Positions 9,028 to 10,241 of a stretch of DNA of 10,938 bases are shown one piece after another (position 1 is the first letter of the stretch; each line of letters opens with the position of its first letter). The translations under genes and the position numbers were made by a program. The notes under the pieces were generated by a model, which was not told where the DNA came from, ran no database searches, and was given only the letters and a program-made list of their open reading frames with translations. Origin of the DNA: a virus. Taxonomy: Duplodnaviria; Heunggongvirae; Uroviricota; Caudoviricetes. The stretch spans positions 1 to 10,938 of IMG/VR virus record IMGVR_UViG_3300029212_000210, one strand, 5' to 3'.

Positions 9028-9246
9028 ATGATGAATTGTCCAAAGTGTGGTCATGCGGCACACACAAGGAGCAGTTTTCAAGTAACTGAAAGCACCAAAG
9101 AGCGTTACTGCCAGTGCCAAAATATTAACTGCGGGAGCACTTTTGTTACCCATGAAACAGTGGTCCGGTTTATTGTGACACCCGCACTGATTGCTACTGC
9201 TCCTCCACATCCATTGCCAGGTGGTCAGGGGCATATGAATTTTTGA
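9028..9246 (+). CDS. ogr: Late transcription activator Ogr (C4 zinc-finger)
   Basis: Seen: the ATG at 9028 (or 9031) is preceded by AGGTAGGGA and gives 72 aa with the CPKCGH...CQCQNINC zinc-finger pattern, equal in length to P2 Ogr. The ORF-track start at 8983 is a GTG further upstream and is not preferred. Confidence 0.9.
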   Translation: MMNCPKCGHAAHTRSSFQVTESTKERYCQCQNINCGSTFVTHETVVRFIVTPALIATAPPHPLPGGQGHMNF

Positions 9247-9253
9247 GAAAGAG

Positions 9254-9276
9254 AACCTGCTACGGCAGGTTTTTAT
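9254..9276. terminator. Bidirectional rho-independent terminator between convergent ogr and the BRCT-like ORF
   Basis: Seen: AACCTGC (9254-9260), loop TACG, GCAGGTT (9265-9271), then TTTTATT on the plus strand and CUCUUUCUC on the minus strand. It overlaps the minus-strand stop codon. Confidence 0.6.
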
Positions 9277-9755
9277 TCATCTGGGATCTCACCCGTTTCA
9301 AGAAAATGTATAAAGCCAGGCTCATCTATGATGATTGTGCCTTTCATCCTGGCTGCCGATACTTTTGATGGGCCTGCATTGTAACCGCAACAGAGCATCT
9401 GAAGGCTTTGGGTTACAGAGGTTCTTACCGTTAATCCTTGTTCATTCGCCTTATCAACCAATCTTTCTTTATCTGCTTTCTTAAATCCGGTGAAACACAC
9501 ATCGAATGTATTTTTTTTCGGACCAGACTGCTTAGTGAGATGTGAGTAGCTTTCGGGGAGGAATGACGCGCATTCCTGAATGGCTTGTTCTGGTGAATCG
9601 TACTGTTTAAGAATGCGGTCTTTTCGGAAGGTTTTTATTCGATCGGTGTTCTTACAAATGCCCTGTATATGATTTTCGCTATAACTGATGCTCTGTATAG
9701 AGTGAACACCGATACGACCATTTGCATTGATGTAAACAAAGTGAAGTTCTTCCAT
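9273..9755 (-). CDS. Hypothetical protein with a C-terminal BRCT-like domain and a small beta-rich N-terminal domain that is possibly WYL-like
   Basis: Seen: 160-aa ORF with an AGAGG ribosome-binding site 6 nt upstream of the ATG. GC is about 42%, lower than the prophage backbone. The C-terminal ~80 aa (FDVCFTGF..ADKERL..KA.EQGL.V..SV...L..L..G.N.G.SK...A...G..II.E..F..FL) fit the BRCT pattern seen in the LigA C-terminus. The N-terminal motif R.KTFRKDRI resembles the end of WYL domains. Domain calls are from pattern memory only. Confidence 0.65.
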   Translation of the reverse strand: MEELHFVYINANGRIGVHSIQSISYSENHIQGICKNTDRIKTFRKDRILKQYDSPEQAIQECASFLPESYSHLTKQSGPKKNTFDVCFTGFKKADKERLVDKANEQGLTVRTSVTQSLQMLCCGYNAGPSKVSAARMKGTIIIDEPGFIHFLETGEIPDE

Positions 9756-9781
9756 GTGAAACCTCTTTGCATGATTTCAAG

Positions 9782-9820
9782 ATGGCGACAGGCAAGATGG
9801 ACGCAAAAGTCTGTCGCCAT
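9782..9820. repeat. Perfect 10-bp inverted repeat ATGGCGACAG / CTGTCGCCAT separated by 19 bp, overlapping a CAAGATGG direct repeat
   Basis: Seen: arms at 9782-9791 and 9811-9820. CAAGATGG occurs at 9778-9785 and 9793-9800. Located between the BRCT-like ORF start and the ssrA terminator. Confidence 0.45.
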
Positions 9821-9835
9821 TTTGCCGCCACTACC

Positions 9836-9870
9836 AAAGAAAAAGGGGCTACGCTTTCACGTAACCCCTT
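9836..9870 (-). terminator. Rho-independent terminator of ssrA
   Basis: Seen (minus strand): AAGGGG-u-UACG, loop UGAAAG, CGUA-g-CCCC, followed by UUUUUCUUU, starting 9 nt after the tmRNA CCA end. Confidence 0.6.
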
Positions 9871-9878
9871 GATTTATT

Positions 9879-10241
9879 TGGTGGAGCTGGCGGGAGTTGA
9901 ACCCGCGTCCGAAATTCCTACATCCTCGGTACTACATGCTTAGTCAGTCTTTACATTCGCTTGCCAGCTGCGGACGGACACGCCACTAACAAACTAGCCT
10001 GATTAAGTTTTAACGCTTCAACCCCAGGCAGGGCTTCCACGCGATCTCTTTTGGGTTTGACCTCTCTTGATCCCCGTCCTAAGAGCGGAGGCTAGGGAGA
10101 GAGGGCTCTAAGCAGGTTATTAAGCTGCTAAAGCGTAGTTTTCGTCGTTTGCGACTATTTTTTGCGGCTTTTTACGAGGCCAACCGCCCCTCGGCATGCA
10201 CCTTGGGTTTCGCAAATCCCGTCGAATCCAGAATCAGCCCC
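9879..10241 (-). ncRNA. ssrA: tmRNA (SsrA), complete, 363 nt
   Basis: Seen: the reverse complement runs from GGGGCTGATTCTGGATTCGACGGG to GTTCAACTCCCGCCAGCTCCACCA and includes the tag-encoding stretch GCAAACGACGAAAACTACGCTTTAGCAGCTTAA (ANDENYALAA). It matches E. coli ssrA as I recall it. Confidence 0.97.

What the first reader, a model, noticed from the sequence alone, without database searches (positions are those of the whole stretch)
9778..9820. Perfect 10-bp inverted repeat plus CAAGATGG direct repeat between the BRCT-like gene and the ssrA terminator
Seen: ATGGCGACAG (9782-9791) and CTGTCGCCAT (9811-9820) with a 19-bp spacer, and CAAGATGG at 9778 and again at 9793. By rough estimate a perfect 10-bp inverted repeat within 30 bp is expected well under once in a window this size. 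Inference: it lies in the presumed promoter or 5' leader of the BRCT-like gene and close to where attR should be, so it could be an operator for a dimeric regulator, an RNA stem-loop in the leader, or part of an integrase or excisionase arm-binding array.
Basis: seen in the sequence. Interest (0 to 1): 0.45.

Follow-up and report, generated by a model that had tools for sequence, protein, structure and literature searches.

The report
Integrase arm-binding sites in prophage attR
The inverted repeat is two oppositely oriented copies of the short motif that a 186/Fels-2-type phage integrase is predicted to bind beside its ssrA attachment site, so it is an ordinary part of a prophage end and not a new regulatory element.

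Summary
They lie inside attR of a P2/186/Fels-2-like prophage integrated at the 3' end of ssrA in E. coli.

- **Right arm (9811-9820):** this is the first of two tandem motifs, TGTCGCCATTT and TGCCGCCACTA, 11 bp apart. They match the published 186-type integrase arm-site consensus (tgccGCCActt / YAYCGCCAYTY).
- **Other side of the core:** the same tandem pair recurs at attL. It is invariant in Salmonella, Klebsiella, Yersinia and Citrobacter phages that integrate at ssrA.
- **Integrase:** the prophage integrase carries the 186-type residues in its arm-binding domain.
- **Left arm (9782-9791):** this is a third, inverted copy of the motif (TGTCGCCATCT). Phage 186 and its relatives have the same layout, one inverted site plus two direct sites.
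- **Left arm is lineage-specific:** Yersinia phage MLG42 has a 93% identical integrase and a homologous cargo gene but lacks it. It varies without compensation in 6 of 45 related contigs.
- **CAAGATGG repeat:** this is the flank of the inverted motif plus a decayed second copy. An 8-bp direct repeat this close is not significant on its own.

The operator, RNA-hairpin and excisionase readings are not supported. No protein binding was tested. This is a known kind of element and of low interest.

The parts
9812..9822 (+). Arm-type Int site A (TGTCGCCATTT). It covers all but the first base of the right arm of the inverted repeat.
   Evidence: Matches tgccGCCActt. Differs from YAYCGCCAYTY only at position 2 (G for A). 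Invariant apart from the Y position across Fels-2, SEN8, Klebsiella ST15/ST437, MLG42, Cartapus and about 20 other genomic loci. No variation in 45 IMG/VR contigs.
9823..9833 (+). Arm-type Int site B (TGCCGCCACTA), in tandem with site A at 11-bp phasing.
   Evidence: The same tandem pair recurs on the int-side arm at attL (L005 7602-7623) and in Cartapus attP.
9780..9790 (-). Arm-type site C (TGTCGCCATCT on the minus strand), an inverted third copy. It covers most of the left arm of the inverted repeat. Its flank supplies the first CAAGATGG.
   Evidence: Exact match to TGYCGCCAYYT. Analogous to the inverted third site of 186 and its relatives. Lineage-specific: absent from MLG42, the Klebsiella phages and Fels-2. 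Variable at 9783, 9786 and 9789.
9795..9805 (-). Degenerate copy D (TGCGTCCATCT on the minus strand, 9 of 11 matches, CGCCA core broken). Its flank supplies the second CAAGATGG.
   Evidence: Read from the sequence. The second repeat is altered in L071, L078, L084, L100, L101 and L117, L122.
9843..9870 (-). Phage-borne intrinsic terminator that ends ssrA in the lysogen. In the free phage the equivalent element is annotated in 186 as the terminator of the lysogenic operon.
   Evidence: Terminator scan. Conserved in all ssrA-integrating relatives. The 186 record annotates an equivalent terminator between the arm sites and the core.
9862..9874 (-). Exact match to the IHF consensus WATCAANNNNTTR (AATCAAGGGGTTA), between the arm sites and the core.
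   Evidence: 2 matches in the window against 0.32 expected. 186 has an IHF footprint at the equivalent place. Fels-2, Klebsiella and Yersinia relatives carry one mismatch here.
9878..9922 (.). 45-bp att core identity, equal to the 3' end of ssrA. It is shared by attR, attL and the Cartapus attP.
   Evidence: Comparison of the window with L005 attL and Cartapus attP. Fels-2 annotates a 47-bp attP here.
9879..10241 (-). ssrA (tmRNA), the integration target.
   Evidence: ARAGORN and Rfam RF00023 at 295.8 bits.
9273..9755 (-). Cargo gene inserted between the ogr terminator and the att arm. It encodes a 160-aa protein with a BRCT domain like that of NAD-dependent DNA ligase.
   Evidence: Pfam BRCT E=0.0011, below the curated cut-off. 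phrog_2561, E=2.5e-77. Absent from Fels-2 and SEN8; other cargo occupies the same place in Klebsiella phages.
9028..9246 (+). ogr/Delta-like late activator, the last core phage gene before attR.
   Evidence: RefSeq annotation of the source genome.

Best explanation
**Setting.** The window ends with the right end (attR) of a P2/186/Fels-2-like prophage integrated in the 3' end of ssrA.

**What the inverted repeat is.** It is not a functional palindrome. It is two oppositely oriented copies of the 186-type arm-type recognition motif (TGYCGCCAYYT) of the phage's heterobivalent tyrosine integrase.

**Right arm.** The right arm (site A) and the adjacent site B form a tandem pair at 11-bp phasing. 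This pair is conserved in this integrase lineage and is mirrored by a second tandem pair on the int-side arm.

**Inferred mechanism.** This follows established knowledge of lambda, P2 and 186 intasomes. The N-terminal domain of Int binds the arm sites while its core-binding and catalytic domains act on the ssrA-derived core about 60-100 bp away. An IHF-type bend between them brings the two together.

**Left arm.** The left arm (site C) is a third, inverted copy of the motif, in the same layout as the inverted third site of phage 186. In this E. coli lineage it is probably an auxiliary Int site or a recent copy, and it is dispensable.

**CAAGATGG repeat.** The repeat is the 3' flank of the inverted motif (GCCATCTTG) plus a decayed second copy 15 bp away.

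**Shown versus inferred.**
- Shown: motif identity, the architecture on both arms, conservation, and the integrase type.
- Inferred: actual Int binding, and any role for site C.
For: **1. The locus is attR.**
- The window is 100% identical to E. coli 2014C-3011. There the prophage runs from int/attL to ogr/attR at ssrA.
- The free phage Cartapus carries the intact attP in the order ogr, cargo, inverted repeat, terminator, 45-bp ssrA core, AT-rich arm, RES gene, int.

**2. The motif is a known one.**
- Nilsson et al. 2011 (PMC3448106) report at least two direct arm repeats on each side of the core in P2-like phages. They define two classes, tgTGGaCa (P2-type) and tgccGCCActt (186-type).
- The 186 GenBank record annotates 'predicted Int arm-type recognition sequences; consensus YAYCGCCAYTY; 3 sites to left of attP and 2 to right'.

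**3. The window's sites fit it.**
- Sites A (TGTCGCCATTT), B (TGCCGCCACTA) and inverted C (TGTCGCCATCT) match.
- attL has TGCCGCCAAAATGTCGCCATCA, in the same orientation and at the same 11-bp phasing.

**4. The conservation edge is sharp.**
- Conservation starts at 9811. CTGYCGCCATTTTGCCGCCAC is invariant apart from its single Y position in Fels-2, SEN8, two Klebsiella phages, MLG42, Cartapus and Citrobacter, Tatumella and Enterobacter loci.
- Everything to the left of 9811 differs between lineages.
- Cronobacter phage ESSI-2 also integrates at ssrA. It has P2-type GTGGAC repeats at the same two places and D/R residues in its Int N-terminus.

**5. The integrase is of the 186 type.** It has W11/E14/Y16, as does 186 Int. 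These correspond, at an offset of 5, to alignment positions 16, 19 and 21 named.

**6. An inverted third site has precedent.**
- The 186 consensus hits exactly five sites in attP. The leftmost is inverted.
- That inverted site is kept at constant spacing in EtG, GCS667, BIS20, MDG45 and Klebsiella ST147, and in about 10 diverged IMG/VR contigs.
- Other att types also show one inverted site plus two direct sites (L113, L116, L121).

**7. Constraint is on sites A and B.** Among 45 related IMG/VR contigs, 11 variable positions fall between 9778 and 9838. None falls in 9812-9830.
Against: - **No binding data.** Even the 186 arm sites are annotated as 'predicted'.
- **The left arm shows no detectable constraint.** Three of its 10 positions vary. 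Two variants, CGCCA to CACCA and GCCAT to GCCCT, break the motif core.
- **The left arm is not required by a close relative.** MLG42 has a 93% identical Int and a 72% identical cargo protein but lacks the left arm entirely.
- **Spacing differs from 186.** The inverted core lies 31 bp from the first direct core here, against 17 bp in 186.
- **Orientation differs from the closest relatives.** In Fels-2-type phages the third site is direct, not inverted.
- **Position 2 of the motif differs.** It is G here and A in the 186 consensus, although this agrees with the published tgccGCCActt.
Confidence: 0.78

Rival explanations
1. Only the right arm, with site B, is functional. The left arm and the CAAGATGG repeat are neutral by-products of local duplication or inversion of the arm motif when the cargo module and its leader were acquired. 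On this reading the perfect palindrome has no function.
For: - Left-arm positions 9783, 9786 and 9789 and second-repeat position 9799 vary in close relatives, while sites A and B never do.
- MLG42 and the Citrobacter, Tatumella, Erwinia and Klebsiella loci lack the left arm although they have the same Int type and cargo.
- The two arms are 13 of 14 identical beyond the 11-nt consensus, which suggests a recent copy.
- A 10-bp perfect inverted repeat arises by chance in about 25% of windows of this size.
Against: - An exact 11-nt consensus match within 60 bp of the tandem pair has a chance probability of about 2e-4 (my calculation from the degeneracy of the motif).
- The layout of one inverted plus two direct sites recurs and is conserved in the 186 group and in other att types.
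- The more diverged relatives L117 and L122 keep the left arm intact although the second CAAGATGG and the leader have changed.
Confidence: 0.3
2. The inverted repeat forms an RNA hairpin in the 5' leader of the BRCT-like gene. The transcript would be one that reads through the ssrA terminator, since all elements are on the minus strand. The hairpin would modulate stability, processing or translation.
For: - ssrA, its terminator, the inverted repeat and the cargo gene are co-oriented.
- No sigma-70-like promoter was found between the terminator and the ATG.
- The minimum-free-energy fold contains the hairpin.
Against: - The fold is not exceptional: z = -1.64, and 11 of 200 shuffles fold as well.
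- The hairpin ends 27 nt upstream of the ATG and leaves the AAAGAGG ribosome-binding site free.
- No U-tract follows it.
- 6 of 45 related contigs carry stem-breaking substitutions (at 9783, 9786, 9789 and 9811) without compensation.
- Homologous cargo genes in other genera lack the hairpin.
- No Rfam family matches.
Confidence: 0.05
3. The palindrome is an operator for a dimeric transcription factor, such as CI or the BRCT-like protein itself, that controls the cargo gene.
For: - It has dyad symmetry.
- It lies 27-65 bp upstream of the cargo start codon.
Against: - It is not conserved with the cargo gene: the 72% identical homologue in MLG42 and others have no palindrome.
- The prophage's likely CI operator in the switch region is an unrelated palindrome, AACTTCTAA...TTAGAAGTT.
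- The 19-bp spacer is long for a simple dimer operator.
- The cargo protein has no recognisable DNA-binding domain. Only a BRCT domain was found.
- Asymmetric variants are tolerated.
Confidence: 0.04
4. The CAAGATGG direct repeats are binding sites for the Apl/Cox-like excisionase (RDF).
For: - The prophage encodes a Cox/Apl-like RDF (phrog_575).
- RDFs bind direct repeats inside att.
Against: - There are only two copies, 15 bp apart. RDF operators are spaced 10-11 bp apart, and 186 Apl needed three adjacent operators for efficient binding in vitro.
- The dual-function RDFs of P2-like phages use the same motif in the switch region. That region shares essentially no 6-mers or 7-mers with the repeat segment. 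It has its own T[TA]AAAC repeat, three copies at 10-bp spacing.
- In 186 the Apl sites are on the int-side arm.
- The second repeat is mutated in several relatives.
Confidence: 0.03

Closest known systems
Predicted Int arm-type sites of coliphage 186 attP (GenBank NC_001317/U32222; consensus YAYCGCCAYTY, 3 left and 2 right)
   Same: - The motif has the same core (YCGCCA) and T-rich 3' flank.
- Tandem direct pairs at 11-bp phasing lie on both sides of a tRNA-like core.
- A minus-strand terminator and an IHF site lie between the ogr/B-side arm sites and the core.
- A third, inverted site lies upstream of the B-side pair.
- The integrase is 55% identical and has the same W/E/Y arm-domain residues.
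   Different: - The target is ssrA, not tRNA-Ile.
- Position 2 of the motif is G, not A.
- The inverted site is 31 bp from the first direct core, not 17 bp.
- A cargo gene is inserted between ogr and the arm.
- The inverted site here is not conserved in the nearest ssrA-integrating relatives.
attP of Fels-2 / SopEPhi / SEN8 (Felsduovirus, ssrA-integrating)
   Same: - The ssrA core, terminator and A+B tandem pair are the same. Similarity starts exactly at window 9811 and is 97-98% over 9811-9923.
   Different: - There is no cargo gene.
- The third arm-type site is in direct orientation about 20 bp upstream (TTGCCGCCAG / TTGTCGCCAG).
- There is therefore no inverted repeat and no CAAGATGG repeat.
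P2 attP arm-type sites (tgTGGaCa class; per Nilsson et al. 2011)
   Same: - The general architecture is the same: heterobivalent Int, at least two direct arm repeats on each side of the core, and IHF and Cox/RDF as accessory factors.
- Cronobacter phage ESSI-2 shows this class at the same ssrA site.
   Different: - The recognition motif differs.
- The Int N-terminal discriminator residues differ (Y/D/R against W/E/Y).
Lambda attP arm-type sites P1, P2, P'1-P'3
   Same: - The concept is the same: several copies of an arm motif.
- The following rests on my own knowledge of lambda, not on a tool result. The arm sites occur in both orientations across the att site, and different subsets are used for integration and excision.
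   Different: - The motif is unrelated.
- The integrase subfamily is different.
- The lambda sites have been footprinted.

Membership tests
186-type Int arm-type binding sites (P2-like phage attP) | Sequence matches the arm-site consensus tgccGCCActt / YAYCGCCAYTY | tested here: met
   Sites are A TGTCGCCATTT (9812), B TGCCGCCACTA (9823) and C TGTCGCCATCT (9780, minus strand). Copy D (9795-9805, minus strand, TGCGTCCATCT) fails the CGCCA core.
186-type Int arm-type binding sites (P2-like phage attP) | [quoted passage not shown] | tested here: met
   The ogr side has sites at 9812 and 9823. The int side has sites at L005 7602 and 7613, also 11 bp apart and on the same strand. The same holds in Cartapus, SEN8 and MLG42.
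186-type Int arm-type binding sites (P2-like phage attP) | Located in attP between ogr and int, flanking a core identical to attB | tested here: met
   A 45-bp identity (9878-9922) is shared by attL, attR and the Cartapus attP, and it equals the ssrA 3' end. Other E. coli genomes match the window only from about 9874-9879 rightwards.
186-type Int arm-type binding sites (P2-like phage attP) | The cognate integrase has the 186-type N-terminal arm-binding domain (W, E, Y discriminators) | tested here: met
   This prophage's Int reads GKWLCECYPNG and 186 Int reads GGWICELYPNG. ESSI-2, which has P2-type arms, reads GEWLCDLRPNG.
186-type Int arm-type binding sites (P2-like phage attP) | Conserved across phages that share the integrase type, whatever the neighbouring genes | tested here: inconclusive
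   Met for sites A and B: invariant across genera and free of polymorphism. Not met for the left arm, site C: absent from MLG42, the Klebsiella phages and Fels-2, and polymorphic.
186-type Int arm-type binding sites (P2-like phage attP) | Bound by the N-terminal domain of Int (footprint or EMSA) | not testable with these tools
   This needs purified protein. Even for 186 the record calls the sites 'predicted'.
RDF (Apl/Cox/Xis) binding array | Direct repeats at 10-11 bp spacing, with three adjacent copies needed for efficient binding (shown in vitro for 186 Apl) | tested here: not met
   There are two CAAGATGG copies, 15 bp apart.
RDF (Apl/Cox/Xis) binding array | The same motif is present in the lytic/lysogenic switch region (dual-function RDFs of P2-like phages) | tested here: not met
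   The switch region shares no relevant k-mers with 9756-9810. It carries T[TA]AAAC, three copies at 10-bp spacing, instead.
Structured RNA element or intrinsic terminator | Stable stem supported by covariation; a U-tract if it is a terminator | tested here: not met
   The fold z-score is -1.64. The terminator scan reports nothing there. Stem-breaking variants are uncompensated. No Rfam family matches.
Palindromic operator of the adjacent gene | Co-conserved with the regulated gene | tested here: not met
   Cargo homologues (72% identical in MLG42) lack the palindrome.

The most novel reading that the evidence does not exclude
The arm-type sites could double as a transcriptional control point.

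- The BRCT-like cargo gene has no recognisable sigma-70 promoter.
- It sits directly downstream of ssrA and its terminator on the same strand. In the lysogen it could therefore be transcribed by read-through from the very strong ssrA promoter.
- Int bound head-to-head at sites C and A/B, 27-78 bp upstream of the start codon, could act as a roadblock or operator complex.
- Cargo expression would then depend on integration state and Int level. The extra inverted site of this E. coli lineage would have been selected for that role and not for recombination.
Probability: 0.05. Interest if true: 0.5.

Novelty: new member of a known kind. Interest (0 to 1): 0.15.

Why it matters
**What it settles.**
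- A striking palindrome next to ssrA is part of a standard prophage attachment site, not a new regulatory or RNA element.
- The attR anatomy of a P2-like lineage found in about 3% of complete E. coli genomes (165 of 5,426) is now mapped: core, terminator, IHF-like site and Int arm sites.

**Practical use.**
- The limits of the minimal attP are defined for anyone wanting to use this ssrA-specific integrase as a tool.
- The cargo hotspot between ogr and the arm sites abuts, and in some lineages replaces, a third arm site. That suggests the third site is dispensable.

Nothing here changes current understanding of site-specific recombination.

Tried and rejected
**Readings tested and rejected**
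- **RNA hairpin.** The fold is not exceptional, no Rfam family matches, and variants are uncompensated.
- **Operator tied to the cargo gene.** Cargo homologues lack the palindrome.
- **Excisionase array.** Spacing and copy number are wrong. The motif is absent from the switch region. By analogy with 186 it would also be on the wrong arm.
- **Promoter for the cargo gene within 9756-9880.** The scan found none, and by eye there is no TAnnnT hexamer on the minus strand. How the cargo gene is transcribed remains open.
- **Chance alone.** This is plausible for the bare 10-bp inverted repeat and for the 8-bp direct repeat. It is not plausible for the cluster of motif matches.

**Dead ends**
- Figure S4 of Nilsson et al., which lists the arm repeats of Fels-2 and SopEPhi, is not held as text.
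- Pelludat et al. 2003 on the SopEPhi attP is not held.

**An idea I could not settle**
- The degenerate copy D may mark the ancestral position of the inverted site. It lies 16 bp from site A, against 17 bp in 186. Site C would then be a 15-bp tandem duplicate of it. The spacing coincidence is suggestive, but the two 15-mers share only 10 of 15 bases.

Full report
**Observation.**
ATGGCGACAG lies at 9782-9791 and its complement CTGTCGCCAT at 9811-9820, separated by 19 bp. CAAGATGG lies at 9778 and 9793. The inverted repeat extends to 14 nt with one mismatch.

- A perfect 10-bp inverted repeat with a spacer of 30 bp or less is expected about 0.4 times in a window of this size. It appeared in 25% of simulations.
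- The 14-nt version with one mismatch appeared in 0 of 40 simulations.
- An 8-bp direct repeat within 30 bp is commonplace: 4.8 expected and 20 observed in the window.

**Context.**
The window is 100% identical to E. coli 2014C-3011. It covers the right end of a P2/186/Fels-2-like prophage. In order it contains:
- late genes;
- ogr (9028-9246);
- a 160-aa BRCT-domain cargo gene on the minus strand (9273-9755);
- the repeats;
- an intrinsic terminator on the minus strand (9843-9870);
- ssrA (9879-10241, minus strand);
- smpB.

All 5,426 complete E. coli genomes match the ssrA part. Only 165 carry the prophage end, and the others match only from about 9874-9879 rightwards.

The other prophage end, attL, lies 35 kb upstream next to int. 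It repeats the last 45 bp of ssrA.

The sequenced phage Cartapus has the intact attP. Its order is ogr, cargo, the same inverted repeat, terminator, 45-bp ssrA core, AT-rich arm, RES-domain gene, int. The repeats therefore lie inside the ogr-side arm of attP/attR.

**What the right arm is.**
Several ssrA-integrating relatives were compared: Fels-2, SEN8, two Klebsiella phages, Yersinia phage MLG42 and Cartapus, together with Citrobacter, Tatumella and Enterobacter loci. Conservation starts sharply at 9811.
- CTGYCGCCATTTTGCCGCCAC is invariant apart from its single Y position, followed by the terminator and the core.
- Everything to the left of 9811 differs between lineages.

This block is two copies of TGYCGCCA 11 bp apart. 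The same tandem pair, in the same orientation, lies on the int-side arm.
- In this prophage it is TGCCGCCAAAATGTCGCCA at L005 7602-7620.
- Cartapus, SEN8 and MLG42 have the equivalent.

The literature gives the identity.
- Nilsson et al. [quoted passage not shown]
- They define two classes, tgTGGaCa (P2-type) and tgccGCCActt (186-type).
- The phage 186 GenBank record annotates predicted Int arm-type sites with consensus YAYCGCCAYTY, three to the left of attP and two to the right.
- That record also annotates a minus-strand terminator and IHF footprints flanking the core, and five Apl sites on the int-side arm.

The integrase fits.
- This prophage's Int is 55% identical to 186 Int.
- It carries the W/E/Y residues proposed to discriminate 186-type arm recognition.

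Cronobacter phage ESSI-2 acts as a natural control. It also integrates at ssrA. It has GTGGAC tandem repeats at the same two places, and an Int with D and R at two of the three discriminator positions.

The right arm of the inverted repeat is therefore arm-type site A of a conserved A+B pair.

**What the left arm is.**
On the minus strand, 9780-9790 reads TGTCGCCATCT. This is an exact match to the same motif. The inverted repeat is thus two arm-type sites placed head to head.

Phage 186 has the same layout.
- Its consensus hits exactly five sites in attP, and the leftmost is inverted.
- That inverted site is kept at constant spacing in diverged relatives: EtG, GCS667, BIS20, MDG45 and Klebsiella ST147, and about ten IMG/VR contigs whose flanks differ.
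- Other att types also show one inverted site plus two direct sites (L113, L116, L121).
- In Fels-2-type and several other lineages the third site is direct. In MLG42-type and Klebsiella ST15-type arms it is absent.

**The CAAGATGG repeat.**
- The first copy is the 3' flank of inverted site C (GCCATCTTG). Site A has the equivalent flank, GCCATTTTG, which explains the third copy found.
- The second copy belongs to TGCGTCCATCT (9795-9805, minus strand). This is a 9-of-11 match in which the CGCCA core, kept by every other arm-type site examined here, is broken.
- The second copy is mutated in several relatives.

I read it as a decayed duplicate.

**How constrained is each part?**
An anchored search that left the whole 9778-9838 segment free recovered 45 related IMG/VR contigs. 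Variable positions were:
- 9783, 9786 and 9789 in the left arm;
- 9799 in the second repeat;
- 9804 and 9807 in the spacer;
- 9811, the first base of the right arm and outside the 11-nt motif;
- 9831 and 9834-9836.

No position in 9812-9830 varied. By my calculation about 4 of the 11 variable positions would be expected to fall in sites A and B (22 of the 61 free positions), and P(0) is about 0.007.

Six of the 45 contigs have an imperfect inverted repeat with no compensating change. One variant, TGTCGCCA to TATCGCCA, moves site C towards the 186 consensus while breaking the stem.

MLG42 is a phage isolated on Yersinia pestis EV76-CN. Its Int is 93% identical and its cargo protein 72% identical. 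It has no left arm and no CAAGATGG. The left arm is therefore dispensable in a close relative and is not visibly constrained.

**Rival readings.**
- *RNA hairpin.*
  - The elements are co-oriented with ssrA, and no sigma-70 promoter is evident.
  - Against that, the fold is unexceptional (z = -1.64), there is no U-tract, and the ribosome-binding site stays free.
  - Variants are uncompensated.
  - No Rfam family matches.
- *Operator of the cargo gene.* It is not co-conserved with the gene. It is unrelated to the likely CI operator in the switch region.
- *Excisionase array.*
  - There are two copies at 15-bp spacing. RDF operators are spaced 10-11 bp apart, and 186 Apl needed three adjacent operators for efficient binding in vitro.
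  - The motif is absent from the switch region. That region has its own T[TA]AAAC repeat, three copies at 10-bp spacing.
  - In 186 the Apl sites are on the other arm.

**Mechanism.**
This part is inferred from established knowledge of lambda, P2 and 186 intasomes.
- The N-terminal domain of Int binds sites A and B and the attL pair.
- The core-binding and catalytic domains act on the ssrA-derived core.
- A bend between them brings arm and core together. An exact IHF consensus lies at 9862-9874, at the place of a 186 IHF footprint.
- Site C may add a further Int protomer, as is presumed for 186, or it may be a neutral recent copy.

No binding has been measured for this phage, and the 186 sites are themselves annotated as predicted.

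**Verdict.**
The other options are not.
- The element is a new member of a known kind: 186-type arm sites in a Cartapus/500465-1-like E. coli prophage lineage.
- Interest is low.

Noticed in passing
window 9273-9755 (minus strand); also L009 961-1443, L022, L027, L039, L046: A 160-aa cargo protein sits between the ogr terminator and the att arm. It has a C-terminal BRCT domain like that of NAD-dependent DNA ligase (Pfam E=0.0011, below the cut-off; phrog_2561 E=2.5e-77; weak PADLOC PDC-S48 hit). Homologues occupy the same slot in Yersinia, Citrobacter, Klebsiella, Erwinia and Tatumella elements. Klebsiella phages carry unrelated small genes there, and Fels-2 carries none. No sigma-70 promoter is evident, and the gene is co-oriented with ssrA, so read-through expression in the lysogen is conceivable. 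Its function is unknown.
   Followed up: partly
L005 7463-7639 and upstream (source genome NZ_CP027591.1, about 968-976 kb): Two prophages sit in tandem at ssrA. A lambdoid prophage remnant (NleG and DUF1076 effector genes, tail fibre genes, IS30) ends at a second, partial ssrA copy. That copy serves as attL of the P2-like prophage.
   Followed up: no
L005 10392-10417 (switch region between cI and the apl-like gene); int-side arm L005 7509-7601: T[TA]AAAC occurs three times at exactly 10-bp spacing between the divergent early genes. These are candidate operators for the Cox/Apl-like RDF (phrog_575). GTTTAA and GTTTTA occur in inverse orientation in the AT-rich int-side arm of attP and not in the ogr-side arm. 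The switch region shares 15 six-mers with the int-side arm and 3 with the ogr-side arm.
   Followed up: partly
window 9862-9874 (minus strand): There is an exact IHF consensus, AATCAAGGGGTTA, overlapping the promoter-distal half of the ssrA terminator stem. It lies between the arm sites and the core, where 186 has an IHF footprint. Relatives carry one mismatch here (AAACAAGGGGTTA).
   Followed up: partly
L005 7624-8655 (minus strand); Cartapus L003 3644-4849: A second cargo slot lies on the other side of attP, between int and the int-side arm sites. Here it holds a 343-aa protein of unknown function (phrog_17460, no Pfam hit). In Cartapus it holds a RES-domain protein, in 186 orf69, and in SEN8 and MLG42 nothing. 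The stop codon of the cargo gene abuts the arm-type sites.
   Followed up: no
L005 16981-18873 (outside the window, same prophage): A 630-aa P-loop NTPase matches the PADLOC candidate defence system PDC-S49 (E=1.5e-160). It lies between the replication gene and the portal gene. From my own knowledge, not checked here, this corresponds to the tin/old cargo position of P2.
   Followed up: no
window about 1329-1895 (L005 33942-34508) and the flanking tail-fibre ORFs: A recombinase-family (invertase-like) gene lies next to tail-fibre and tail-fibre-assembly genes that are annotated as frameshifted and sit in opposite orientations. This probably marks an invertible host-range segment.
   Followed up: no
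L041 (Plesiomonas MAG contig), about 45 bp upstream of the match at 1265-1284: An inverted-plus-direct pair of the arm motif (TGGCGGCAggTGCCGCCA) flanked by A and T runs looks like a bidirectional terminator built from arm-type motifs, just upstream of the tandem pair.
   Followed up: no
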